Of a stretch of DNA of 64,000 nucleotides, positions 9,541 through 31,059 are shown in pieces; positions within the stretch are counted from its first letter, which is position 1, and every line of letters starts with the position of its first letter. Location of the stretch: assembly GCA_965250185.1 (NCBI GenBank), contig OZ252293.1:4601904-4665903 (forward strand). The letters are read 5' to 3'. A program made the position numbers and the translations under genes. This stretch comes from Vicinamibacterales bacterium. GTDB taxonomy: Bacteria; Acidobacteriota; Vicinamibacteria; Vicinamibacterales; G965250185. The notes under the pieces were generated by a model. The model did not search any database and was not told the origin of the DNA. It was given only the letters and a program-made list of their open reading frames with translations.

Positions 9541-10038
9541 ATGCGCAGACGCGATTTCGTGACGGGAGGGGCAGGAGCTCTGAGCCTGACATTAATCGGC
9601 CGGAACGCCCGGGGTGGGCAGGCGAGCCCCGGCGCGGGAAGCGCCATCAGGATCACTCTCAGCAGCGTCTTCGTCGGCGACCAAGCCGAGGCCTTGGCGT
9701 TCTATACCGAGGTCCTGGGCTTCGAGAAGAAAGAGGACGAGCCGGTAGGGCAGTTCCGGTGGCTGACCGTCGTCTCGCCCGAAGACCCGGACGGCACCGA
9801 GCTGCTCCTCGAGCCGAACGAGAACCCGGCGGCCAGCACGTTCCAGCAAGCCATCTTCGATCAGGGGATACCGGCCACCGCATTTGCCGTCGACGACATT
9901 CAGTCCGTCTACGAACGCTTGAAGGAGCGGGGCGTCGTGTTTCGGCGGGAGCCGACGCTGATGGGAACGACGACGATCGCTGTATTCGACGACACGTGCG
10001 GCAACCTCATTCAGCTGTACCAGGTTGAACAGATGTGA
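9541..10038 (+). CDS. VOC (glyoxalase/bleomycin-resistance fold) protein with Tat-type signal
   Basis: It has MRRRDFVTGG and the VOC pattern FYTEVLGFEK...GNLIQLYQ. The ATG at 9541 lies within the longer ORF 8986..10038. Confidence 0.75.
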   Translation: MRRRDFVTGGAGALSLTLIGRNARGGQASPGAGSAIRITLSSVFVGDQAEALAFYTEVLGFEKKEDEPVGQFRWLTVVSPEDPDGTELLLEPNENPAASTFQQAIFDQGIPATAFAVDDIQSVYERLKERGVVFRREPTLMGTTTIAVFDDTCGNLIQLYQVEQM

Positions 10039-10135
10039 GGCTGGCGGGACTCGAAGGACACTGCGGATCGAGTATTATCGTCCGAGGCTGGCGACGGTGC
10101 CGCCGGCCACCGGTGTGCCGAGAGAGGGAACCCCA

Positions 10136-11293
10136 ATGAAGAACGAATTGACCCGACGAGATGTGATCCGCGGCGGCGCGGCAGGACTGGGCTTGATGGC
10201 CCTGCCCGGATGGGCCTTGCCCGTGCTGGCACAAAACCAGGAAGTCGTGCCGTTCACGGACTATCCTGACGACTGGAAAACCGACCGCGGACCAGAGAGT
10301 CGTTTCCTCGATCTCCGGACAATCGACGGACCGAACACGCCGGCCGACCAGTTCTTCACCACCCAGCACTACGGCCACCCGACGGTCGACGGTACGAGCT
10401 TCCGACTCAAGGTCACGGGCCTCGTCGATCGCGAGGCCGAGCTGTCGCTCGACGACCTCCGCGTGCTGGGCCAGACCGACCTCGACGCGGGCTTCGAGTG
10501 CTCGGGCAATAGTGCTCGCGCCATGCAGGGCCTGGCGTCGAACGCCCGCTGGACGGGAGTTCGGGTGCGCGACGTCCTGAACCACGTCGGCGTCAAGGAC
10601 AACGGGCACGAGGTCGTGTTCTTCGGCGCCGACAAGCGAATGGAGAAGGTCGAGTTCCGCGGCCGAACCTACGAGGTCGAGCAGCACTACGGCCGTAGCA
10701 TCTCGGTGACCAAGGCAATGGCCCCGGAGCCGTTTCTCGCCACGGCGATGAACGGCACGGCCCTCACGGTCCATCAGGGCTTCCCGCTCCGACTCGTCAT
10801 GCCGGGCTGGTATGGTGCGCCCAACGTGAAATGGGTCGCGAACCTTCACGTCCAGGAAGACCCGTATCTCGGGAAGTTCCAGGCGCGCTGGTACCGCACC
10901 CTGCGGGGCGAGATGGTCGGCGGCGAGATGATGTGGAAGGAGACCGCCATCACGCGCATGCGGGTGAAGTCGGTGATCGCTCGGGTGACGCGCGAAGGTG
11001 ACACGTTCACGGCCCACGGCTTCGTGCTCCACGACGGCACGCCGATTCGGTCGGTCGAGGTCCGCGTCGACGATGGAGCATGGGAGGCCGCGACCCTCGA
11101 GCCCGCACAGGGGCAGTACGCCTGGAAGCTGTTTTCGTTCAGCTGGAGGGGATCGGCCCCGGGTGAGCACACCGTGATCTCGCGGGCGACCTACGTCACG
11201 GGCGAGGTCCAACCGACCCCCGAGGATCTCGACACGAAGAAGACGTTCCTCGAAGACAACTCGCAGCACGAGCGTCGAATCATGGTGTCCTAG
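10136..11293 (+). CDS. sulfite-oxidase-family molybdopterin oxidoreductase, Tat signal (copy 1)
   Basis: It has TRRDVIRGGAAGLG, the Mo-ligand motif FECSGNS, GFPLRLVMPGWYGAPNVKWV, and a C-terminal Ig-like domain. Confidence 0.85.
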   Translation: MKNELTRRDVIRGGAAGLGLMALPGWALPVLAQNQEVVPFTDYPDDWKTDRGPESRFLDLRTIDGPNTPADQFFTTQHYGHPTVDGTSFRLKVTGLVDREAELSLDDLRVLGQTDLDAGFECSGNSARAMQGLASNARWTGVRVRDVLNHVGVKDNGHEVVFFGADKRMEKVEFRGRTYEVEQHYGRSISVTKAMAPEPFLATAMNGTALTVHQGFPLRLVMPGWYGAPNVKWVANLHVQEDPYLGKFQARWYRTLRGEMVGGEMMWKETAITRMRVKSVIARVTREGDTFTAHGFVLHDGTPIRSVEVRVDDGAWEAATLEPAQGQYAWKLFSFSWRGSAPGEHTVISRATYVTGEVQPTPEDLDTKKTFLEDNSQHERRIMVS

Positions 11294-11316
11294 CCATCGC
11301 AACAAGGATCCCCCAT

Positions 11317-12474
11317 ATGAAGAACGAACTGACCCGACGAGATGTGATCCGCGGCGGCGCGGCAGGATTGGGCCTGATGGCCCTGCCCGGATGGGCCATG
11401 CCCGCGCTGGCTCAGGGTGAGGCGATTGTCCCGTTCACCGACTATCCCGACGACTGGACGGCCGAACGGGGGCCGGAGCGTCGCCGGCTGGACATTCGCA
11501 CGATTGACGACAAGGCCACGCCCGCTGATCGATTCTTCACGACGCAGCACCTCGGGCATCCGAAGATCGATGGCGCGGCCTTCCGCCTCACGGTGAGCGG
11601 GCTGGTCGACCGCGAAGCCGAGCTGTCGCTCGACGACGTCCGAGCCCTGGGCCAGACGGATCTCGACGCCGCGTTCGAGTGCTCGGGGAACAGCCGCCGC
11701 TCCATGCAAGGCTCCGCCTCGGTCGGTCGCTGGTCCGGAGTGCGTGTGCGCGACGTACTGAACCACGTTGGCGTGAAGGAGAACGGGCACGAGGTCGTGT
11801 TCTTCGGCGCCGACAAGGGGATGGAGAAGGTCGAGTTCCGCGGTCGGACCTACGAGGTCGAGCAGCACTATGGCCGCAGCATCTCGATATCGAAGGCGAT
11901 GACGCCGGAGCCGTTTCTGGCCACCGCGCTGAATGGCGAGCCGCTCACCGTCCACCAGGGTTTCCCGATGCGGCTCCTCATGCCCGGATGGTACGGGGCG
12001 CCCAACGTGAAATGGGTCGCGAACATCCACGTCCAGGAGGCTCCGTTCCTCGGAAAATATCAGGCTCGCTGGTACCGCACGTTGCGCAGCGAAATGGTCG
12101 GCGGCGAGATGCAGTGGAAAGAGACGGCCATCACGCGGATGCGGGTCAAGTCGGTGATCGCTCGCGTGACGCGCGAGGGCGACACGTTCACCGCACTCGG
12201 CTTCGTGCTACACGACGGCACGCCGCTCCGCTCGGTCGAGGTTCGCGTCGACGACGGCGCCTGGGAGACGGCCACGGTCGACCCGTCGCAGAGCCAGTAC
12301 GCCTGGAAGCTCTTCACGCATAGCTGGAAGGGATCGAGCCCTGGCGAGCACGGCGTGATCTCGCGAGCGACCGACGTCAACGGCGAGGTACAGCCAACCG
12401 TCGAGGAACTCGAGGTCAAGAAGACGTTCCTCGAGGACAACTCGCAGCACGAACGTCGCTTCATGGTCTCGTAG
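11317..12474 (+). CDS. sulfite-oxidase-family molybdopterin oxidoreductase, Tat signal (copy 2, tandem paralogue)
   Basis: It is the same length (385 aa) and colinear with copy 1, with most residues identical by eye. Confidence 0.85.
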   Translation: MKNELTRRDVIRGGAAGLGLMALPGWAMPALAQGEAIVPFTDYPDDWTAERGPERRRLDIRTIDDKATPADRFFTTQHLGHPKIDGAAFRLTVSGLVDREAELSLDDVRALGQTDLDAAFECSGNSRRSMQGSASVGRWSGVRVRDVLNHVGVKENGHEVVFFGADKGMEKVEFRGRTYEVEQHYGRSISISKAMTPEPFLATALNGEPLTVHQGFPMRLLMPGWYGAPNVKWVANIHVQEAPFLGKYQARWYRTLRSEMVGGEMQWKETAITRMRVKSVIARVTREGDTFTALGFVLHDGTPLRSVEVRVDDGAWETATVDPSQSQYAWKLFTHSWKGSSPGEHGVISRATDVNGEVQPTVEELEVKKTFLEDNSQHERRFMVS

Positions 12475-12562: not shown

Positions 12563-13564
12563 TCAGGCCAACAGGCGGGTGACCAGGGCAACGTACCCTT
12601 CGACGCCCCGCTCGAGTTCCTCGACGCTCACGTGCTCCTCATCGGTGTGAGCAACCTCGATCCCCCCGGGGCCGAACAATAGCGGCGTACCCCAGGCCGA
12701 CAACAGCGGGACGTCGGTCGTGTACGCGAACGCCGCCGTCTCGAAACCCGGCACGGTGGCCATGGTTGCGGCCGGCACCTCGGTGACCGTCTCGACCTGG
12801 ACGTGCGGCAAATCGGCCAGGCACGCATGCAGGGCGGACGTGTCGCCGACGGTCCGGAAACACACCTGAGCCTCGGCCTCGGCCGGGATCACGTTGTGCG
12901 CCACACCGCCGCTGATCATCGTGACCGCGCTCGTCGTACGACCGAGCACGGGATCCGTCGGCATCTCGATGGTCCGCACTGTCGTCAGCGCCTCGACGAG
13001 CCGGTCGATCGCCGACACACCCAGTTCAGGACGGGAAGAATGCGCCGCCCGCCCGGCCGCACGGATCCTGACGTGCAGGCTACCCCGGGTGGCCGTAGCG
13101 AGTCGGTTGCCGGTTGGCTCACCATTTATGAGGTAACGCGTGGCCGTGGGGAGACGATTCGCGGCCAGGGCTCCCGCACTGCCCGCCTCCTCACCAACCA
13201 CGATGAGCAAGGCGACTCGGGTCTCCCCGGCCGCCCGCAGCCGCTCGGCCGCCACGATCTGTGCAGCCAGAATGCCCTTGGCGTCGCAGGCACCACGTCC
13301 ATGGATCGTGACGCCATCGAAGCGGCTCGGCATGAAGGGCGGCACGCAGTCACAGTGTGTCGAGAGGGCCACGGCCGGACTGGCGGGACCGTCGAGCTCG
13401 GCGAGTACGTTGAAGCGCTCGCCCTCTACTGGCTGGCGCGTGATCCGGTAGCCGAGATCCGTCAGATACCCCGCCAGCCAGTCCGCGACGGCCGTCTCGT
13501 CGCCCGTCGTCGAGTCGATGTCGATGAGCGTCCGCGCAAGCGGCACCAGCCCTAGCGGATCCAC
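12563..13564 (-). CDS. M20 family metallohydrolase (DapE/ArgE type), last gene of the dap operon
   Basis: It has HCDCVP, GRGACDAKG and VGEE motifs. Its start overlaps the dapD end. Confidence 0.75.
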   Translation of the reverse strand: MDPLGLVPLARTLIDIDSTTGDETAVADWLAGYLTDLGYRITRQPVEGERFNVLAELDGPASPAVALSTHCDCVPPFMPSRFDGVTIHGRGACDAKGILAAQIVAAERLRAAGETRVALLIVVGEEAGSAGALAANRLPTATRYLINGEPTGNRLATATRGSLHVRIRAAGRAAHSSRPELGVSAIDRLVEALTTVRTIEMPTDPVLGRTTSAVTMISGGVAHNVIPAEAEAQVCFRTVGDTSALHACLADLPHVQVETVTEVPAATMATVPGFETAAFAYTTDVPLLSAWGTPLLFGPGGIEVAHTDEEHVSVEELERGVEGYVALVTRLLA

Positions 13565-14445
13565 TGCTCCAGCTCCGTCCGCGCGTCCGTCCGGTCATCG
13601 CGATACTTGACGATGACCGGGGTGGCCAGCGACAGCTGCCAGTCGCGCCCTGCACCAGACGTCACGGCGCGCGCACCGGGCACGACGACTGCGTTCTCTG
13701 GCACGATCAACGGTTCGCCGGCGGCAGGCCGGATGATCTGGGAGCGCGGGAGGTCGTAGATGGGCGTCGACCCGGTGAGAATCGTGCCCGCCCCGATCAC
13801 CGCGCGCGTCCGTACGATGACACCCTCGAACAGGCCGGTGTTGCCTCCAACGATGACATCGTCCTCGATGATGACGGGAAATGCACCGACCGGCTCGATG
13901 ACGCCGCCGAGCTGGGCGCCAGCGCTCAGGTGCACCCGCCGACCCACCTGGGCACAGGAGCCGACGAGTGCATGGGAGTCGATGAGCGATCCGTCGCCCA
14001 CGTACGCGCCGATGTTGATGTACATCGGCGGCATGCAGATCACCCCAGGGGCCACGTAGGCTCCGTCTCTGATGGCGGACCCCCCGGGCACGACGCGGAC
14101 GCCCGAGGCAACGTCCAGCCTCCGGAGGGGCAGCGTGTCCTTGTCGAAGAACCTGAAGCCTGCGGCGTCACCGCCCAGCTCCATCATCGTTCCCGCACGA
14201 AAGCCGAGCAGGATGCCCTCCTTCACCCACGCATTGACCCGCCAGCCGGTGGCCGACATCGGGTCGGGCTCCGCGGCACGCGCGACTCCGGAGGACAGCG
14301 CAGCTCGAAGCCTCGAGAAGACGCCCAAGGCGTCAGTGGCGTCCGGGGCATCCTGATCGGACAGGCGGCGGACGGCCTTCTCGAGACCAACGCTCTCCGC
14401 CTCGGGTCCAGCTGGCGCGTCGCGAGGGCCGCTCATGGCACTCAT
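13552..14445 (-). CDS. dapD: 2,3,4,5-tetrahydropyridine-2,6-dicarboxylate N-succinyltransferase
   Basis: It has hexapeptide-repeat left-handed beta-helix sequence and a DapD-like N-terminus. The ATG at 14445 overlaps the dapA stop (ATGA). The longer ORF up to 14835 would overlap dapA. Confidence 0.85.
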   Translation of the reverse strand: MSAMSGPRDAPAGPEAESVGLEKAVRRLSDQDAPDATDALGVFSRLRAALSSGVARAAEPDPMSATGWRVNAWVKEGILLGFRAGTMMELGGDAAGFRFFDKDTLPLRRLDVASGVRVVPGGSAIRDGAYVAPGVICMPPMYINIGAYVGDGSLIDSHALVGSCAQVGRRVHLSAGAQLGGVIEPVGAFPVIIEDDVIVGGNTGLFEGVIVRTRAVIGAGTILTGSTPIYDLPRSQIIRPAAGEPLIVPENAVVVPGARAVTSGAGRDWQLSLATPVIVKYRDDRTDARTELEQWIR

Positions 14446-15365
14446 GAGGCGGCCGCGCGCGTTGGACGGCAGTGGATGCCTGCGCTCGCCAGAGCCTCGA
14501 GGATGAACGATTCCGATCGTGCGTCGGGCGCGACCAGCGGCAGCCGGTAGACCGGCCGGATCAGGCCCATCGCCGCCATGGCCGCCTTCACGGGGATCGG
14601 GTTGGACTCGACGAAATTGGCCAGCATCAGCCGGAGCAGCCCTCGATGGATCACACGAGCCCCGGCGAAATCGCCCGCCTCGGCTCGCTCGACCATGCGA
14701 GCCATCTCGGCCGGCACTTCGTTCGACGCGACCGAAATTACCCCGTGGCCCCCGATGCTCATCAACGGTAGCGTGAGGGCATCGTCGCCGGAGAGCACGA
14801 TGAAGTCGTCCGGCGTCGCCACTAGCACCTCGCACATCTCGGCGACATTGCCAGTCGCCTGCTTGACGCCAACGATGTTCGGGATCTCTGCGAGCCGAAC
14901 CAGGGTCTCGATGGCGATCCGGCAGCCTGTTCGGCCGGGGACGTCATAGACGACGATGGGCAGCGGCGTCGACTCGGCGATCGCGGAAAAATGACGGTAA
15001 AGACCTTCTTGGGAGGGCTTGTTGTAGTAGGGCGTCACCGACAGGAGACCGTCTGCTCCGGCCCGCGCCATCTCGCGGGCAACGCGGCAAACCTGCGCCG
15101 TGTCGTACCCTCCCGCACCGGCCAGCACCGGCACCCGGCCACCGGCCACCTCGACGACCGTCGTCACGAGTTGCCGCCGCTCGGCGTCGGTCAGCGTGGG
15201 GGCCTCGCCCGTCGTGCCGCATGGTACGAGGAAGTGAACGCCGGACTCGATCTGGCGGGTCGCCAATCGTCGCACGGCGTCGGAATCGACGGCGCCGGCG
15301 TCCGTGAAGGGCGTGACGAGCGCGGTGCCGCAGCCGGTCCATCTCCGTCTCTCGTTTGTCGTCAT
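14442..15365 (-). CDS. dapA: 4-hydroxy-tetrahydrodipicolinate synthase
   Basis: It has TALVTPF, CGTTGE, YYNKP and VYDVPGRTG motifs. Confidence 0.9.
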   Translation of the reverse strand: MTTNERRRWTGCGTALVTPFTDAGAVDSDAVRRLATRQIESGVHFLVPCGTTGEAPTLTDAERRQLVTTVVEVAGGRVPVLAGAGGYDTAQVCRVAREMARAGADGLLSVTPYYNKPSQEGLYRHFSAIAESTPLPIVVYDVPGRTGCRIAIETLVRLAEIPNIVGVKQATGNVAEMCEVLVATPDDFIVLSGDDALTLPLMSIGGHGVISVASNEVPAEMARMVERAEAGDFAGARVIHRGLLRLMLANFVESNPIPVKAAMAAMGLIRPVYRLPLVAPDARSESFILEALASAGIHCRPTRAAAS

Positions 15366-16102
15366 GTCAGTGTCTCCGCATCAAGTCCGAGTACATGCCG
15401 CATGGTGAACCATCCTCGCCTGCCGTGAACCCAGCGGGCCGCTTCGAGTGCGCCTTGGACGAACACGCGTCGATCGCGCGTCGTGTGCGTCAAGGTGACC
15501 GTCTCGAACGGGCCGTCGAAACCAACCGTGTGGGTGCCTGGTATCGCCCCCACACGCGTGGACGCGATATCGAGTTCCGGGTCGCACCCGCTCTCCGCCA
15601 GGGCCTGACGCAGCGCGATGGCCGTGCCGGACGGAGCATCCCGCTTCCTCGCATGGTGCAGCTCATGGACCCACGGCTCGAAGCCGGGTCTGGAACCGAG
15701 GAGTGCAGCCGCCCGTTCGACGATCGCGATGAAGGCGTTCACGCCCAGAGCGAAATTCGGTGCGGCGACGACTCCGATCTCGGAATTCGCCACCAGCACG
15801 CGGAGCTCGGCCTCGGCGGTCTGCCAGCCGGTCGTCCCGATGACCGTGTCGACGCCGAGACGCGCCAGTTGCGTGAGGTTGCCCGCCACTGCTGACCCGA
15901 CCGAGAAATCCACGGCGACGTCGACGTCCGACCACCGTCCATCGAGACCCACACCGCCCGCGTTGCTGGCCCCGTCGAGCCAGCCCGCCACTTCGAAGCC
16001 GTACTCCTGGCTCATAGCTTCGACAGCCCGACCCATGCGGCCGTAGCCGATGAGGAGCACGCGCAAGGAATCGTGGCGAGACGTCGTTGACATCGGAGGC
16101 AT
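15362..16102 (-). CDS. dapB: 4-hydroxy-tetrahydrodipicolinate reductase
   Basis: It has the Rossmann motif VLLIGYGRMGR and the ELHHARKRDAPSGTA motif. The start is at 16102 or 16093. The longer ORF up to 16216 would run through a terminator hairpin. Confidence 0.85.
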   Translation of the reverse strand: MPPMSTTSRHDSLRVLLIGYGRMGRAVEAMSQEYGFEVAGWLDGASNAGGVGLDGRWSDVDVAVDFSVGSAVAGNLTQLARLGVDTVIGTTGWQTAEAELRVLVANSEIGVVAAPNFALGVNAFIAIVERAAALLGSRPGFEPWVHELHHARKRDAPSGTAIALRQALAESGCDPELDIASTRVGAIPGTHTVGFDGPFETVTLTHTTRDRRVFVQGALEAARWVHGRRGWFTMRHVLGLDAETLT

Positions 16103-16109
16103 CGTAGGC

Positions 16110-16145
16110 AAAAAAAACCGCCGACCGGCTGAGCCGGGTCGGCGG
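16110..16145 (-). terminator. intrinsic terminator hairpin plus U8, 8 nt upstream of the dapB start
   Basis: The minus strand reads CCGCCGACC(C)GGC-TCA-GCCGGTCGGCGG followed by TTTTTTTT. Confidence 0.7.
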
Positions 16146-16172
16146 TGGGTCGCACCTAGTATGCGTAACTTC

Positions 16173-16274
16173 TCAGGTCGTGCCTCGACACCCACCACCG
16201 ACACCATGGCTTCCATGGCTACGCTTGGCCCGCTTGGCCCGGTTTCGGTCGGAAGTGGTGTGCCCGAACTGCAT
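16173..16274 (-). CDS. candidate 33-codon leader peptide MQFGHTTSDRNRAKRAKRSHGSHGVGGGCRGTT
   Basis: The ATG lies 3-4 nt after the predicted transcription start. The ORF spans helix segments 1 and 2 and contains two AAG Lys codons. This call is hypothetical. Confidence 0.3.
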   Translation of the reverse strand: MQFGHTTSDRNRAKRAKRSHGSHGVGGGCRGTT

Positions 16275-16284
16275 TTAACAGAGA

Positions 16285-16312
16285 AGTATAGGGCGCTCTA
16301 TCGGATTGTCAA
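16285..16312 (-). promoter_or_regulatory. sigma70-like promoter: TTGACA, 16-nt spacer, TATACT
   Basis: The minus strand reads CTTGACAATCCGATAGAGCGCCCTATACT, immediately after the stop of the upstream VOC gene. Confidence 0.5.
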
Positions 16313-16338
16313 GCGTCTCTCGATTTTCTCGGAACGAT

Positions 16339-17190
16339 CTAGTACGCGTTCAACCCCTCGGTCAGCTCGATGTACGTGCCGAAGGGATCGGTGAAAAACG
16401 CGATGGCAATGCCGAGAGACTCGATCGTCTGGTACGGACGATCGAACGTGATGCCTTGCGCCGTCAGATTCTCGCAGAAGGCCTCGAGCCCGCGGACTTC
16501 GAATCCGATGTGGTCGAGACTTCGACCTTTCGTCCCGGTCAGCGGGTTGGCTGACGGTGAATACGTCAGGTTGACGCCGGGTAGATCGGCTGCCTCGAAC
16601 GAGCCCCGCATCCCTGGCGTCGCGCCGAACGTCTCCACGTACCAGGCCTTCATCTCGTCCACCTGCTCGGTCGCGAAGTGGACGTGATGGAGCGTGATCG
16701 GGATGGTCTGCGCCCGGTTCTCCACGAACTCGACCTTCACATCGTCAGGACCCATGGTGTAGGCGATGTAGGTGTTCTGGTCGGGGATGTGCGCGAGATC
16801 GTCCTGCACATCGACTGTCGGCGGCACCTCCGCTTTGGTGATGATCGGGTAGCCTGCCGCCTTCACCGTGTCCACGATCGCGCGCAGGTTGGGCACCGCG
16901 AACCCGATGTGGTTCACCGTCGTCCCCTTCGTGCCTCCAGTCGGCTCCGCCTCACGTGCCATGATCAGGACGTTGGAGAACTTGAATAGCTCGCCGCTGC
17001 CGAACGGTACGGTCGTGCCGCCGAGCGTGTCTACCCAGAATCGCCTGTGTGCGTCCACGCTGGTCACGCTCAAGTGATGGTGTCCGTACACGACGGGACC
17101 TTCCGCGGCCGCGGTGAGCTGCGCGGACGCGGCGGCGGCGAGGATCGGCACGAGCAGAAGTGACAGGGACAGAATGGCGGTCGTCTTCAT
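16339..17190 (-). CDS. secreted two-domain VOC family protein
   Basis: It has the signal peptide MKTTAILSLSLLLVPILAAAASA and two glyoxalase-like modules (VNHIGFAV and LDHIGFEV). Confidence 0.7.
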   Translation of the reverse strand: MKTTAILSLSLLLVPILAAAASAQLTAAAEGPVVYGHHHLSVTSVDAHRRFWVDTLGGTTVPFGSGELFKFSNVLIMAREAEPTGGTKGTTVNHIGFAVPNLRAIVDTVKAAGYPIITKAEVPPTVDVQDDLAHIPDQNTYIAYTMGPDDVKVEFVENRAQTIPITLHHVHFATEQVDEMKAWYVETFGATPGMRGSFEAADLPGVNLTYSPSANPLTGTKGRSLDHIGFEVRGLEAFCENLTAQGITFDRPYQTIESLGIAIAFFTDPFGTYIELTEGLNAY

Positions 17191-30171: not shown

Positions 30172-31059
30172 TCAGCGCAAGTGCTCGTTGAAGAACGCGA
30201 TCGTCCGATCCCACGCCAGCGTCGCCGCGGCCTCGTCGTAGCGCGGCGTCGTATCATTGTGGAAGCCGTGATTGGTGCCATCGTACATGTGCATCGTGTA
30301 CGTGACACCGTTCGCCTTCAGCGCCGTCTCGTAATCCGGCCAGCCCGCGTTGACACGCTCGTCGAGGCCCGCATACTGAATCAGCAGTGGCGCCTTGATC
30401 TTCGGAACGTTCTCGGACGGTGGCTGGCCGCCGTAGAACGGAACGGCCGCCCCGAGGTCGGGAATCTCGACCGCCAGCGCGTTGGACATGCCGCCGCCGA
30501 AGCAGAAGCCGACAACGCCGACGCTGCCGCTGCAATGCGCGTGCGATTTCAGAAAGCCGGCGGCCGCGACGAAGTCCTCGAGCATCTCGTCCCGCGATCG
30601 CTTCCGCTGCAGCTCGCGCCCCTCATCATCGGTGCCCGGATAGCCGCCGAGCGGCGCGAGCGCGTCCGGCGCGAACGCCAAGAAGCCGGCCAGCGCGGCG
30701 CGGCGGGCGACGTCCTTGATGTGGGGATTGAGTCCCCGATTCTCGTGAATGACCAGGACACCAGGTAGCGTGCCACTCGCGTCAGCCGGGCGGACGAGGT
30801 AGCCCCTCATCGTGCCGGCACCCTGAGGCGAGGCGTACTCGACGGTCTCGGCCGTCACACGTGCGTCGCCCTCGGCGATCTGCTGAGCCTCCGCGTAGTT
30901 GGGGCTGAGGCTCTCCACCAGCGCGGCCGCTGTCACTCCGCCGACAGCGAACTTCGCCGCGCCGTCGAAAAACTCGCGGCGACTGACCCCGCCGTGCACG
31001 TACCGATCGAAGAGGTCGAGCAGCTCCGGGTCGAAATCGGTGGCCTTCTTGCGCTCCAT
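30172..31059 (-). CDS. dienelactone hydrolase family protein
   Basis: It has the Tat-like SRREFF, plus [23 protein letters not shown] and HGFHND. Confidence 0.85.

What the first reader, a model, noticed from the sequence alone, without database searches (positions are those of the whole stretch)
16103..16312. Candidate leader-peptide attenuator in front of the dapB-dapA-dapD-M20 operon
Between the upstream VOC gene's stop and dapB the minus strand carries several elements in order:
- A near-consensus promoter, TTGACA, 16-nt spacer, TATACT (16312-16285).
- An ATG only about 3-4 nt after the expected transcription start. It opens a 33-codon ORF (16274-16173) containing RAKRAKR, with two AAG Lys codons inside a duplicated 9-mer.
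- Four segments that can pair alternatively.
- A U8 tract ending 8 nt before the dapB ATG.

The alternative pairings are:
- Segment 1 (CACACCACUUCCGAC) with segment 2 (GUCGGUGGUGGGUGUG).
- Segment 2 with segment 3 (ACCCACCGCCGAC), giving 13 bp with one G-U pair.
- Segment 3 with segment 4 (GGUCGGCGG), which forms the 12-bp GC terminator stem.

The leader stop codon lies just after segment 2. A ribosome finishing the peptide would cover segment 2 and allow the terminator to form. A ribosome stalled at the Lys codons would leave segment 2 free to form the antiterminator. This is the trp-type logic applied to a lysine/DAP pathway operon. As far as I know, lysine control is usually by an L-box riboswitch, and I could not recognise one here. 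Two Lys codons is weak evidence. A stand-alone ~170-nt sRNA is an alternative reading.
Basis: partly seen in the sequence, partly recalled or inferred. Interest (0 to 1): 0.65.

Follow-up and report, generated by a model that had tools for sequence, protein, structure and literature searches.

The report
Lysine leader-peptide attenuator before dapB
A short translated leader with mutually exclusive RNA hairpins and a terminator sits directly in front of the lysine/diaminopimelate genes of this Vicinamibacteria (Acidobacteriota) genome. It most likely shuts them off when lysyl-tRNA is plentiful: a textbook mechanism, but I found no earlier description of it for these genes or in this phylum.

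Summary
On the minus strand there is a promoter (16312-16285), a 33-codon ORF (16274-16173), four segments that can pair alternatively, and a 12-bp terminator with U8 that ends 7 nt before the dapB ATG.

The decisive evidence is comparative. I found 32 non-identical homologous leaders in Vicinamibacteria genomes and metagenomes.
- All lie upstream of asd, aspartokinase or dapB.
- All keep a -10 box 7-13 nt before an ATG or GTG.
- All keep an open frame whose stop falls 19-24 nt after the invariant GGUGGUG (27 checked), and all keep the terminator.
- The frame survives a compensated -2/-1 frameshift pair, a 45-nt insertion and a 9-nt duplication. The untranslated spacer varies in length without regard to triplets.
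- Every leader keeps 1-4 Lys codons, about 7% of codons against 1.4% in neighbouring genes. The window lost the conserved Lys codon but regained one through the duplication.
- In all 32, the best upstream partner of the terminator's 5' arm is segment 2.

No Rfam family matches. The best reading is a ribosome-mediated, probably lysine-sensing transcription attenuator with a near-leaderless leader ORF: a new member of a known kind. No transcript or translation data exist. The antiterminator cannot be tested by covariation. The identity of the sensed amino acid is inferred.

The parts
16307..16312 (-). -35 hexamer TTGACA
   Evidence: TTGAC is conserved at the same distance in most relatives. Relatives that lack it carry an extended -10 (TGnTAAACT or TGnTATAAT) instead.
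16285..16290 (-). -10 hexamer TATACT, 10 nt upstream of the leader ATG
   Evidence: 11 of 12 match, 16-nt spacer. A -10 box lies 7-13 nt before the start codon in all 32 leaders. This implies a 5' UTR of roughly 0-6 nt with no room for a Shine-Dalgarno site.
16173..16274 (-). Leader ORF, 33 codons plus TGA (MQFGHTTSDRNRAKRAKRSHGSHGVGGGCRGTT)
   Evidence: The frame, start and stop position are conserved in relatives. The peptide is absent from a collection of about 15 billion predicted proteins, so it is unannotated.
16248..16262 (-). Segment 1, CACACCACUUCCGAC (codons His-Thr-Thr-Ser-Asp), the 5' arm of the anti-antiterminator P1
   Evidence: It pairs with seg2 in the MFE fold. The duplex energy is -26.8 kcal/mol. 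On a model-fitted alignment of 26 relatives that does not include the window, the P1 helices are 86-89% paired and show changes on both sides of pairs.
16239..16247 (-). CGA AAC CGG, the homologue of the family-invariant CGA AAG CGG (Arg-Lys-Arg). Here the Lys codon has changed to Asn.
   Evidence: Alignments A2 and the codon alignment. CGA is invariant in all 32 leaders.
16221..16238 (-). Tandem 9-nt duplication GCCAAGCGG GCCAAGCGT carrying the two AAG Lys codons (16235-16233 and 16226-16224). These are the proposed sensor codons.
   Evidence: The duplication is shared with L122, the only other leader that has lost the first Lys.
16204..16218 (-). Small internal hairpin CCAUGG-AAG-CCAUGG inside the P1 loop
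   Evidence: MFE folds. Relatives have a hairpin of a different sequence at the equivalent place (GGUUCCG...CGGAACC), with compensatory changes.
16187..16202 (-). Segment 2, GUCGGUGGUGGGUGUC. It pairs either with seg1 or with seg3.
   Evidence: The GGUGGUG core is near-invariant across the family, including at wobble positions and in two leaders that read it in another frame. GGT makes up only 18% of Gly codons in neighbouring genes.
16173..16175 (-). Leader stop codon TGA, 11 nt after seg2 and 24 nt after the start of GGUGGUG
   Evidence: In the ATG frame the first stop falls 19-24 nt after GGUGGUG in all 27 leaders tested. In the other two frames it is absent or scattered.
16151..16165 (-). 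Small spacer hairpin CGCAU-ACUAG-GUGCG between the stop codon and seg3
   Evidence: MFE folds. The spacer varies in length among relatives (51-61 nt, all residues mod 3).
16138..16150 (-). Segment 3, ACCCACCGCCGAC. It forms the antiterminator with seg2 (13 bp, one G-U) or serves as the 5' arm of the terminator.
   Evidence: -28.6 kcal/mol. Seg2 is the best upstream partner of this segment in 32 of 32 leaders.
16110..16145 (-). Intrinsic terminator: CCGCCGACCCGGC-UCA-GCCGGUCGGCGG (12 bp, one bulged C) followed by U8 (16117-16110)
   Evidence: It is the only site with an uninterrupted U8 run in the 60 kb scanned. On the alignment of 26 relatives the terminator helix is 98% paired, and 9 of its 11 pairs show changes on both sides.
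15362..16102 (-). dapB (4-hydroxy-tetrahydrodipicolinate reductase), the first regulated gene. Its ATG lies 7 nt after the U-tract, with no Shine-Dalgarno site.
   Evidence: Pfam DapB_N and DapB_C. The closest homologues are listed.
12563..15365 (-). Rest of the operon: dapA (15365-14442), dapD (14445-13552) and an M20 peptidase, a dapE-like candidate (13564-12563). Start and stop codons overlap.
   Evidence: Pfam DHDPS, THDPS_N_2/Hexapep and Peptidase_M20. Overlaps.

Best explanation
This is a ribosome-mediated (leader-peptide) transcription attenuator of the dapB-dapA-dapD-M20 operon, most likely tuned to lysyl-tRNA.

Proposed mechanism.
1. RNA polymerase starts a few nucleotides before the leader ATG. 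The 5' UTR is about 0-6 nt with no Shine-Dalgarno site, so initiation is leaderless-type.
2. If translation of the 33-codon leader proceeds unhindered, the ribosome runs to the stop codon 11 nt past segment 2. There it sterically prevents seg2 from reaching seg3, or seg2 re-pairs with seg1 behind it. Seg3 is left to form the 12-bp terminator with seg4, and transcription ends in the U8 tract 7 nt before dapB.
3. If lysyl-tRNA is scarce, the ribosome stalls at the AAG codons between seg1 and seg2. Seg1:seg2 cannot close, and the free seg2 captures seg3 in a 13-bp antiterminator as soon as seg3 is made. Polymerase then reads into dapB.
4. With no ribosome at all, seg1:seg2 plus the terminator is the most stable fold.

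Shown here: the sequence elements, their conservation, the coding-type constraint on the leader ORF, the Lys-codon enrichment, the pairing potentials and the gene association.

Inferred: the transcription start, translation of the ORF, stalling, the kinetic choice between helices, and lysine as the signal.
For: (1) Anatomy in the window.

(2) A family of 32 non-identical leaders in five subfamilies. They were found by nhmmer in DapB-anchored genome loci, by a DNA-pattern scan of metagenomes and upstream of the closest DapB homologues. The named source records are mostly Vicinamibacterales, Vicinamibacteria or Acidobacteriota; one (L019) is labelled Bifidobacteriaceae.

(3) Gene context is always the aspartate/lysine pathway: asd-dapB-dapA-dapD, asd-aspartokinase, aspartokinase-dapB, or dapB-dapA-dapD. 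Upstream neighbours differ and are sometimes divergent. In the window, L090, L030 and L122-L127 the terminator ends a few to about 15 nt before the likely dapB start, which leaves no room for a separate promoter.

(4) Coding-type constraint.
- No stop occurs in the ATG frame in 27 of 27 leaders, against 9 and 7 leaders with stops in the other two frames.
- The ATG-frame stop always falls 19-24 nt after GGUGGUG.
- Of the 13 distinct ATG-to-seg2 distances, 11 are multiples of 3. The other two belong to the subfamily whose stop is shifted to match.
- The 9 distinct lengths of the untranslated seg2-to-seg3 spacer are spread 3/4/2 over the classes mod 3.
- L021 carries a -2 and a -1 deletion that together restore the frame.
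- The 45-nt insertion and the 9-nt duplication are in frame.

(5) Peptide conservation. Between subfamilies the peptide is not conserved apart from Arg-Lys-Arg and the stretch encoded by seg2. Codon-position periodicity is weak. This is what is expected of a leader peptide rather than a functional protein.

(6) Lys codons.
- There are 1-4 in every leader: 73 of 1021 codons (7%), against 1.4% in seven neighbouring proteins.
- One representative per subfamily gives 10 Lys in 142 codons, P = 4.5e-5.
- The window and L122 lost the conserved Lys codon but carry a duplication that restores a count of two.

(7) RNA pairings.
- All three pairings exist in every one of the 27 leaders folded, with mean duplex energies of -28, -21 and -18 kcal/mol.
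- Seg2 is the best upstream partner of the terminator arm in 32 of 32 leaders, by a mean of 6.9 kcal/mol.
- The off-state structure is 92% paired against 34-44% for slid controls, and 22 pairs show changes on both sides against 5-7 in the controls (that alignment is fitted to the model).

(8) Constrained folds.
- In the window, no ribosome or a ribosome at the stop codon gives seg1:seg2 plus the terminator (unconstrained MFE -75.1 kcal/mol).
- In one fold of the window leader, a ribosome at Lys17 gave the antiterminator as the full-length MFE. A second run needed the 5' tail masked as well to give it.
- In nascent transcripts, a Lys-stalled ribosome gives seg2:seg3 for 72 of 73 Lys codons.

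(9) No Rfam family matches the window or eight other family members.
Against: - There is never a run of Lys codons, only 1-4 scattered ones. For the window alone the enrichment is not significant (P = 0.08).
- Arg (14%) and, in the asd-linked subfamily, Thr (about 20%) are also enriched. Part of this follows from seg1 having to complement GGUGGUG (ACC = Thr).
- Seg2 and seg3 are nearly invariant, so the antiterminator has no covariation support. Cognate partners pair no better than non-cognate ones for seg2:seg3.
- For seg1:seg2, 25% of non-cognate partners pair as well as the cognate one.
- In the window the Lys codons lie 12-21 nt 3' of seg1. A stalled ribosome would cover at most 3 nt of seg1, so blocking rests on steric hindrance.
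- Equilibrium folding is ambiguous. Before seg4 is made, seg2:seg3 already beats seg1:seg2 without a ribosome in 16 of 32 leaders, including the window. With a Lys-stalled ribosome the full-length MFE still holds the terminator in half of the leaders. The choice must therefore be kinetic.
- Three leaders start with GTG.
- The transcription start is inferred from the -10 spacing only.
- There are no expression, Term-seq or ribosome-profiling data.
Confidence: 0.7

Rival explanations
1. A leader-peptide attenuator as above, but the signal is not specifically lysine. It could report general translation capacity, or another or an additional amino acid: Thr in the asd-linked subfamily, or Arg through the invariant rare CGA codon.
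For: - Thr makes up 18.5% of ATG-frame codons overall. Typical asd-type leaders read MFERTTKTTTRKRV....
- Arg is about 14% of leader codons against 7.5% background, and CGA is invariant.
- Lys codons are few.
- A Thr/Lys-rich sORF upstream of an aspartate-pathway gene was proposed as a leader peptide in S. meliloti (PMC10117765).
Against: - The only residue conserved in all five subfamilies besides Arg is Lys.
- Its count is restored by a duplication where it was lost.
- Thr enrichment is absent from the asd-aspartokinase subfamily (L080, L109) and from the dapB-type leaders.
- Downstream genes belong to the lysine/DAP pathway or the common aspartate trunk, never to arginine synthesis.
- ACC codons are partly forced by complementarity to GGUGGUG.
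Confidence: 0.12
2. A stand-alone small gene (a basic 23-46-residue peptide, or an sRNA) with its own promoter and terminator. dapB is expressed by constitutive leak-through, and the alternative pairings are incidental.
For: - It is a complete promoter-to-terminator unit of about 165 nt.
- Within subfamilies, parts of the peptide are conserved with some synonymous changes, for example Cys-Arg-Gly in subfamily B encoded as TGT CGA/CGT/CGG GGC/GGT.
- Attenuator RNAs and leader peptides can have functions in trans (rnTrpL and peTrpL in S. meliloti; abstracts listed).
Against: - It is always immediately upstream of, and on the same strand as, asd, lysC or dapB, whatever the upstream neighbour.
- In several lineages the terminator ends about 6-15 nt before the likely downstream start, so an essential gene depends on read-through.
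- Between subfamilies the peptide is unconserved apart from RKR.
- Seg2 is conserved at the RNA level across reading frames.
- Seg2 is the best partner of the terminator arm in 32 of 32 leaders.
Confidence: 0.08
3. A ligand-, tRNA- or protein-binding RNA switch (a new lysine/DAP riboswitch, or a T-box-like tRNA-Lys sensor) that controls the same terminator. The ORF would be a by-product.
For: - There is an invariant 10-nt motif, CGAAAGCGGG, including its wobble positions.
- The invariant GGUGGU contains UGGU, the complement of a tRNA 3' end ACCA, and there is an invariant AAG. This gives a superficial T-box flavour.
- In the asd subfamily, GCGGGUU can pair with AACCCGC of seg3 and is the second-best partner of seg3.
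Against: - No match to the L-box, the T-box or any of the 4227 Rfam families, even at E up to 10 (window) or up to 1 (eight relatives).
- The conserved nucleotides are almost entirely the pairing segments.
- The region 5' of seg2 is only about 45-115 nt, varies in sequence and length, and tolerates a 45-nt insertion.
- A non-coding switch would not conserve a start codon at the transcript's 5' end, a triplet-constrained length, compensating frameshifts and a fixed stop position.
Confidence: 0.07

Closest known systems
Classical ribosome-mediated attenuators of amino-acid operons (E. coli/Salmonella trpL, thrL, hisL, leuL, pheL; Rfam leader families)
   Same: A short leader ORF carrying codons of the pathway's amino acid. 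Four segments with mutually exclusive 1:2, 2:3 and 3:4 pairings. An intrinsic terminator just upstream of the first biosynthetic gene. A stop codon placed so that a terminating ribosome neutralises segment 2.
   Different: No sequence or model similarity (no Rfam hit). The amino acid is lysine. Only 1-4 sensor codons are present, not a run. In the window they lie between seg1 and seg2 rather than inside seg1. The start codon sits at or within a few nucleotides of the transcript's 5' end, with no Shine-Dalgarno site. The phylum is Acidobacteriota.
Leader-peptide attenuation of the lysine biosynthetic cluster of Thermus thermophilus (Tsubouchi et al., J Biol Chem 2005). Cited from memory; the paper is not in the searchable library.
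   Same: A lysine-responsive leader peptide with Lys codons and a terminator/antiterminator in front of lysine biosynthesis genes. This shows that lysine control by a leader peptide is not without precedent.
   Different: That system controls the alpha-aminoadipate pathway in Deinococcus-Thermus. Here the genes belong to the DAP pathway (asd, lysC, dapB, dapA, dapD) in Vicinamibacteria. Homology could not be tested because no sequence was available, and it is unlikely.
Leaderless leader ORFs: S. meliloti trpL/rnTrpL (PMC10117765) and mycobacterial polycysteine leaderless sORF attenuators (bioRxiv 10.1101/834739; PMC4633059)
   Same: The regulatory sORF begins at or next to the 5' end of the transcript and controls downstream operon genes according to the supply of one amino acid.
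   Different: Different amino acids and taxa. Whether the mycobacterial Cys elements act through an intrinsic terminator I did not check. Here the leaderless start is inferred from the -10 spacing (7-13 nt), not from a mapped start.
S. meliloti SEP5 sORF (six Thr and three Lys codons) in the 5' UTR of an aspartate dehydrogenase gene, proposed as a leader peptide (PMC10117765)
   Same: A Thr- and Lys-rich sORF upstream of an aspartate-family gene. This parallels the asd-linked subfamily found here (for example MFERTTKTTTRKRVPATGTSRVGGVCALGA).
   Different: An unrelated organism and gene. No attenuator structure is described in the passage I read. The window's own leader is not Thr-rich.
Lysine riboswitch (L-box, RF00168)
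   Same: The same regulatory job: lysine-dependent premature termination upstream of lysC, asd and dap genes.
   Different: It works by direct ligand binding to a five-helix RNA of about 180 nt with no translation. No match here at any threshold.

Membership tests
Ribosome-mediated (leader-peptide) transcription attenuators | A short ORF in the 5' leader that is translated | tested here: inconclusive
   The ORF and its coding-type constraints are conserved: frame, start, stop position, triplet-constrained lengths and compensating frameshifts. Translation itself cannot be shown with these tools. The start is inferred to be leaderless-type from the -10 spacing.
Ribosome-mediated (leader-peptide) transcription attenuators | The leader peptide is enriched in codons of the amino acid made by the downstream pathway | tested here: met
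   Lys makes up about 7% of leader codons against 1.4% in neighbouring proteins. Every one of the 32 leaders has at least one. One representative per subfamily gives P = 4.5e-5. The enrichment is modest (1-4 codons, no run), and for the window alone P = 0.08.
Ribosome-mediated (leader-peptide) transcription attenuators | An intrinsic terminator between the leader ORF and the first structural gene | tested here: met
   A 12-bp G+C-rich stem plus U8, ending 7 nt before dapB. It is conserved in relatives, with changes on both sides of pairs in the upper stem.
Ribosome-mediated (leader-peptide) transcription attenuators | An antiterminator (2:3) that is mutually exclusive with the terminator (3:4) | tested here: inconclusive
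   Complementarity is present in all leaders (13 bp and -28.6 kcal/mol in the window; mean -21). Seg2 is the best partner of seg3 in 32 of 32. Both strands are nearly invariant, so there is no covariation test.
Ribosome-mediated (leader-peptide) transcription attenuators | An anti-antiterminator (1:2) whose 5' strand lies in the translated region at or near the sensor codons | tested here: met
   Seg1 is codons 5-9 of the ORF. The P1 helices are 86-89% paired and show changes on both sides of pairs (that alignment is fitted to the model). In the asd subfamily one Lys codon lies inside seg1. In the window the Lys codons lie 12-21 nt downstream of it.
Ribosome-mediated (leader-peptide) transcription attenuators | A stop codon positioned so that a terminating ribosome neutralises segment 2 | tested here: met
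   The stop falls 19-24 nt after the start of GGUGGUG in all 27 leaders tested, whichever frame GGUGGUG is read in.
Ribosome-mediated (leader-peptide) transcription attenuators | Read-through rises when the cognate aminoacyl-tRNA is limiting | not testable with these tools
   This needs lysine starvation or LysRS inhibition with a reporter, Term-seq or RNA-seq.
Lysine riboswitch (L-box, RF00168) | A match to the covariance model (five-helix junction, conserved core) | tested here: not met
   No hit at the gathering score in 64 kb. No hit at E up to 10 in 16000-16450. No hit at E up to 1 in eight other family members.
T-box leader (RF00230) | Stem I with a specifier loop, and the T-box sequence in an antiterminator bulge | tested here: not met
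   No Rfam hit. The region 5' of seg2 is too short and too variable for Stem I. UGGU is paired, not bulged, in the seg2:seg3 duplex.
Rfam amino-acid leader families (Thr, His, Trp, Leu and other leaders) | Sequence/structure similarity to a curated model | tested here: not met
   The only sub-threshold hits are terminator look-alikes (ctRNA_pGA1 at E = 0.14, NsiR1 at E = 3.8).
Leaderless regulatory sORFs (mycobacterial Cys sORFs, S. meliloti trpL) | The transcript starts at, or within a few nucleotides of, the sORF start codon | not testable with these tools
   Only the -10-to-start distance of 7-13 nt in 32 of 32 leaders is available. The 5' end needs mapping.

The most novel reading that the evidence does not exclude
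This family is how Vicinamibacteria regulate the DAP/lysine pathway in place of the L-box riboswitch. It would be a lysine-sensing, near-leaderless leader-peptide attenuator in which the sensor is not a codon run. Instead it is one invariant slow codon pair (rare CGA read through inosine, followed by AAG) plus one or two further Lys codons, often the rare AAA. Its asd-linked variant (TTKTTTRKR) would sense Thr and Lys jointly.
Probability: 0.3. Interest if true: 0.6.

Novelty: new member of a known kind. Interest (0 to 1): 0.5.

Why it matters
How Acidobacteriota, abundant soil bacteria with few cultured members, regulate amino-acid synthesis is largely unknown. A 2010 survey noted that almost none of the attenuators predicted in Acidobacteria had an assigned function (PMC2965389).

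This finding gives a concrete, conserved cis-regulator for the lysine/DAP pathway in one class of the phylum.
- It adds a lysine case to a mechanism best known for Trp, His, Thr, Leu and Phe.
- It shows that a leader peptide with only one to four sensor codons can be maintained over long evolutionary distances.
- The 32 sequences, with their natural frameshift, insertion and duplication variants, amount to a ready-made mutational series.
- The covariance models built here could be used to annotate the element.

It does not overturn any concept.

Tried and rejected
- **Rfam.** Gathering thresholds on the whole window, relaxed E-values on the locus, and eight relatives gave nothing but terminator look-alikes.
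- **Single-sequence nhmmer.** It found only one relative. A two-sequence profile was needed.
- **Covariation test without an alignment.** I compared cognate and non-cognate segment partners. The result was weak for seg1:seg2 and null for seg2:seg3 and seg3:seg4, because those segments are invariant.
- **Codon-position periodicity.** It is weak (B: 9/19/23; A: 31/26/37), so it cannot be used as proof of coding.
- **Equilibrium folding with a ribosome mask on full-length leaders.** Only half switch to the antiterminator, so this is not decisive.
- **Other Vicinamibacterales.** The model found no copy within about 4 kb either side of dapB in the roughly 25 other loci held, which carry different upstream regions. 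The element is not universal in the order.
- **The 45-nt insertion as a mobile repeat.** It was not found elsewhere in the held loci.
- **The second promoter-like site (30350-30377).** It lies inside a gene on the other strand and is a chance match.
- **Exact look-up of seven leader peptides.** None is present among about 15 billion predicted proteins.
- **Look-up of the window's own DapB contig.** It failed.
- **Literature.** Searches for the Thermus lysine leader paper found nothing in the library. Searches for any acidobacterial lysine leader also found nothing.
- **T-box-like reading.** Rejected; see the rival explanations.
Full report
**1. What is in the window**

On the minus strand, the VOC/glyoxalase gene ends at 16342 and dapB starts at 16102. 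Between them the sequence reads, in order (coordinates):
- TTGACA, 16 nt, TATACT (16312-16285).
- Ten nucleotides, then an ATG (16274) opening a 33-codon ORF that ends at TGA 16175-16173.
- Segment 1, CACACCACUUCCGAC (16262-16248).
- A tandem 9-mer, GCCAAGCGG/GCCAAGCGT (16238-16221), with two AAG codons.
- Segment 2, GUCGGUGGUGGGUGUC (16202-16187).
- Segment 3, ACCCACCGCCGAC (16150-16138).
- A 12-bp terminator stem with one bulged C (16145-16118) and U8 (16117-16110).
- Seven nucleotides, then the dapB ATG.

The promoter match (11 of 12) is the best in the 60 kb scanned, and this is the only terminator-like site with an unbroken U8. The leader folds to -77.6 kcal/mol, z = -3.0 against shuffles.

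Downstream lie DapB, DapA (DHDPS), DapD (THDPS) and an M20 peptidase with overlapping start and stop codons. A two-domain glyoxalase/VOC protein lies upstream.

**2. Not a known RNA**

Rfam 15 gives no hit at gathering scores in the whole window. At E up to 10 across 16000-16450 it gives only terminator look-alikes. At E up to 1 it gives nothing relevant in eight other members of the family. There is no L-box, T-box or curated amino-acid leader.

**3. Relatives**

DapB-anchored loci from one genome per species place the window in Vicinamibacteria (Acidobacteriota), with the best DapB identities at 55-63%. I found homologous leaders by three routes:
- A two-sequence nhmmer profile found them in ten of those loci.
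- One metagenome scan with the pattern GGTGGTGKG...CCGCCGA...CGGCGGNTTT gave 52 loci. Of these, 26 carry the whole element and the rest are chance matches.
- The contigs encoding the five closest DapB homologues (70-80% identity) all carry it directly before dapB.

Together this makes 32 non-identical leaders in five subfamilies:
- A: about 18 leaders.
- B: the window plus L090, L122-L125 and L127.
- C: L030.
- D: L031, L039, L103 and L118.
- E: L080 and L109.

About 25 other Vicinamibacterales loci have no copy within about 4 kb either side of dapB and show different upstream regions. The element is lineage-restricted.

**4. Gene association**

- Subfamily A precedes asd-dapB-dapA-dapD.
- Subfamily E precedes asd, followed in L080 by aspartokinase.
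- Subfamily D precedes aspartokinase-dapB-dapA.
- Subfamilies B and C precede dapB-dapA-dapD (and M20, where the contig reaches that far).

Upstream neighbours differ: VOC, YgaP-like, transposases, and divergent genes as in L003. The unit therefore travels with the lysine/aspartate-pathway genes and not with whatever lies upstream. In the window, L090, L030 and L122-L127 the U-tract ends a few to about 15 nt before the likely dapB start. Transcription of this operon therefore has to pass through the terminator.

**5. The ORF is under coding-type constraint, but the peptide mostly is not**

Every leader has a -10 box 7-13 nt before an ATG (GTG in three). These boxes are TATACT, TAAACT, TATAAT and similar. 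They come with either TTGAC at -35 or an extended TGn. This implies a 5' UTR of about 0-6 nt without a Shine-Dalgarno site.

The evidence for a reading-frame constraint is as follows.
- In the start-codon frame there is no stop in 27 of 27 leaders. The first stop then falls 19-24 nt after the start of GGUGGUG.
- In the other two frames, 9 and 7 leaders have internal stops, and the downstream stop is absent or scattered.
- The distance from ATG to seg2 takes 13 distinct values, and 11 are multiples of three. The two exceptions are subfamily E, which reads GGUGGUG as Val-Val and has its stop shifted to match.
- The untranslated seg2-to-seg3 spacer takes 9 distinct lengths spread 3/4/2 over the classes mod 3.
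- L021 has a -2 and a -1 deletion 30 nt apart. Together they restore the frame while the intervening RNA sequence is kept.
- The 45-nt insertion in six leaders and the 9-nt duplication in the window and L122 are in frame.

Between subfamilies the peptide shares only Arg-Lys-Arg and the residues encoded by seg2. Codon-position periodicity is weak. That combination of a protected frame and a free sequence is the signature of a leader peptide. None of seven such peptides tested is present among about 15 billion predicted proteins.

**6. Sensor codons**

Lys is rare here: 1.4% of 2781 residues in seven neighbouring genes. In the leaders it is 73 of 1021 codons. One representative per subfamily gives 10 Lys in 142 codons, P = 4.5e-5.

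The AAG of CGA-AAG-CGG is present in 30 of 32 leaders. The two exceptions are the window (AAC) and L122 (ACG). These are exactly the two that carry the GCCAAGCGG duplication, which brings their Lys count back to two. Subfamily A has a second conserved Lys, usually the rare AAA, inside seg1.

Arg and, in subfamily A, Thr are also enriched. Part of the Thr excess is forced, because ACC complements GGU. Thr enrichment does not track asd: subfamily E lacks it.

**7. RNA**

- All three pairings are present in each of the 27 leaders folded. Mean duplex energies are -28 (seg1:seg2), -21 (seg2:seg3) and -18 (seg3:seg4) kcal/mol.
- In 32 of 32 leaders the best partner of the terminator's 5' arm anywhere upstream is seg2, by a mean of 6.9 kcal/mol.
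- GGUGGUG is kept at wobble positions, although GGT is only 18% of local Gly codons. It is also kept in leaders that read it in another frame. The constraint on it is therefore at the RNA level.
- I aligned 26 leaders (not including the window) to a model of the off-state, meaning P1, the inner hairpin and the terminator. In that alignment 92% of cells pair, against 34-44% when partners are slid. Twenty-two pairs change on both sides, against 5-7 in the slid controls. That alignment is fitted to the model, so these numbers lean in its favour.
- The antiterminator itself cannot be tested by covariation, because both strands are nearly invariant. A cognate versus non-cognate test is null for it.
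- Within subfamily B a register shift (GUCGG to GGCGG) is accompanied by a 5' extension of seg3 that keeps 13-14 bp. This is anecdotal support.

**8. Mechanism and geometry**

In the window:
- The unconstrained MFE is seg1:seg2 plus the terminator (-75.1 kcal/mol).
- Masking a ribosome footprint at the stop codon keeps the terminator.
- In one fold, masking a footprint at Lys17 made seg2:seg3 the MFE of the full-length leader. A second run needed the 5' tail masked as well before it gave the antiterminator.

In nascent transcripts cut before seg4, a Lys-stalled ribosome gives seg2:seg3 for 72 of 73 Lys codons.

Equilibrium results are otherwise mixed. Without a ribosome, seg2:seg3 already wins before seg4 is made in 16 of 32 leaders. 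With a stalled ribosome, the full-length MFE keeps the terminator in half of the leaders. As in the classical attenuators, the decision must be kinetic.

A ribosome at the stop codon has its trailing edge a few nucleotides 3' of GUCGGUGG. It therefore stands between seg2 and seg3. A ribosome at the Lys codons has its leading edge just 5' of seg2.

**9. Rivals**

I considered four alternatives:
- The same attenuator sensing something other than lysine.
- A stand-alone small gene or sRNA.
- A ligand- or tRNA-binding switch.
- A plain terminator of the upstream gene.

The last is excluded by section 4. The others are weighed in their own entries and are not excluded, but none explains the triplet constraint, the fixed stop position, the maintenance of Lys codons and the gene association together.

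**10. Comparison with what is known, and novelty**

The logic is that of the trp, thr and his attenuators. Related precedents:
- A lysine leader peptide exists, from memory, for the Thermus thermophilus lysine cluster. I could not retrieve the paper.
- Leaderless leader ORFs are documented for S. meliloti trpL and for mycobacterial Cys sORFs.
- A Thr/Lys-rich sORF upstream of an aspartate-pathway gene has been proposed as a leader in S. meliloti.
- A 2010 survey knew of leader peptides only in Proteobacteria and Actinobacteria, plus its own cases in Firmicutes. It found acidobacterial attenuators unassigned (PMC2965389).
- I found no paper describing this element.

It is a new family of a known kind of regulator. 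It is interesting mainly for its phylum, its amino acid and its natural set of variants.

**11. Limits**

There are no transcript ends, and no data on translation or the response to lysine. The metagenome pattern required the conserved terminator and GGUGGUG, so the family as sampled is biased towards those features. Several members are close relatives and are not independent observations.

Noticed in passing
L006:2640-2684, L034, L075/L084, L104/L108, L112/L120, L115 (same place in each leader): A 45-nt in-frame insertion, CGCCCCTCGACGTTGCTCGGGGCGACCCTGAGCCTGTCGAAGGGT (RPSTLLGATLSLSKG), lies between seg1 and CGAAAGCGGG in six leaders. These belong to different sub-lineages of the asd-linked subfamily. 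The insertion forms two small hairpins, adds one AAG codon, and ends in TCGAAGGG, which resembles the adjacent TCGAAAGCGGG. Either it was gained or lost repeatedly, or it spread by recombination. It was not found elsewhere in the held loci.
   Followed up: partly
L001, L002, L004, L005, L007, L009, L010, L014, L023: about 110 nt upstream of dapB: Other Vicinamibacterales have a different conserved unit before dapB. It has a GAGTATAAT promoter and a G+C-rich 5' UTR of about 90 nt with a conserved hairpin (CTCGCTCGCGGCCGGCGTGCCGGTCGAGCGGG). It has no small ORF and no U-tract. L015, L016, L022, L028 and L029 share yet another short leader (GATACGGTATGAT plus about 45 nt). These may be independent regulatory solutions for the same gene.
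   Followed up: no
window 16245-16247 and the equivalent codon in all 32 leaders: The Arg codon before the conserved Lys codon is always CGA, never another CGN. In the asd subfamily the first Lys codon is usually the rare AAA (27% of leader Lys codons against 10% in window genes). From general knowledge, CGA is read through an inosine-adenosine wobble and is decoded slowly. It might sensitise the adjacent Lys codon. This is untested.
   Followed up: partly
subfamily A leaders, e.g. L003:2672-2678 with 2758-2764: The invariant motif GCGGGUU is complementary to AACCCGC at the 5' edge of seg3. It is the second-best upstream partner of the terminator arm, about 38 nt before GGUGGUG. This is a possible second, overlapping antiterminator pairing. 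It is absent from the window's subfamily.
   Followed up: partly
window 16102 versus 16093: The public protein identical to the window's DapB (P0001, 243 aa) starts at the second in-frame ATG (16093), not at the first (16102), which lies 7 nt after the U-tract. Neither has a Shine-Dalgarno sequence. In L125-L127 the called DapB start is a much later ATG, although an ATG lies 6 nt after the U-tract.
   Followed up: no
L003:2789-2850, L013, L006, L019 and others, just after the leader's U-tract: G+C-rich palindromes resembling REP elements sit between the terminator and asd in many asd-linked loci. Examples are GCCCGCCTTCGCGCCTTCGGCGCTACGGCGGGC and CGCCGGGTCTGCAGAGCAAGACCCGGCCTACGT.
   Followed up: no
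window 10025-12474 (+): Two tandem paralogous genes for Tat-signal proteins (422 and 385 aa, with near-identical N-termini, MKNELTRRDVIRGGAAGLGLMALPGWA...) lie next to the end of the dap operon in convergent orientation. I did not run them against Pfam.
   Followed up: no
window 30350-30377 (+): The second-best promoter-like match in the window (TTGACA, 16 nt, CATACT; 10 of 12) lies inside a 295-aa gene on the opposite strand. No plausible ORF follows it, so it is a chance match.
   Followed up: yes
L019 (contig CAYHHH010000111.1): This contig carries a typical Vicinamibacterales asd-dapB locus and leader, but it is labelled 'uncultured Bifidobacteriaceae'. L028 carries a dapB locus of the short-leader type seen in other Vicinamibacterales loci (no copy of this element) and is labelled 'Dehalococcoidia'. 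Both are probably mis-binned.
   Followed up: no
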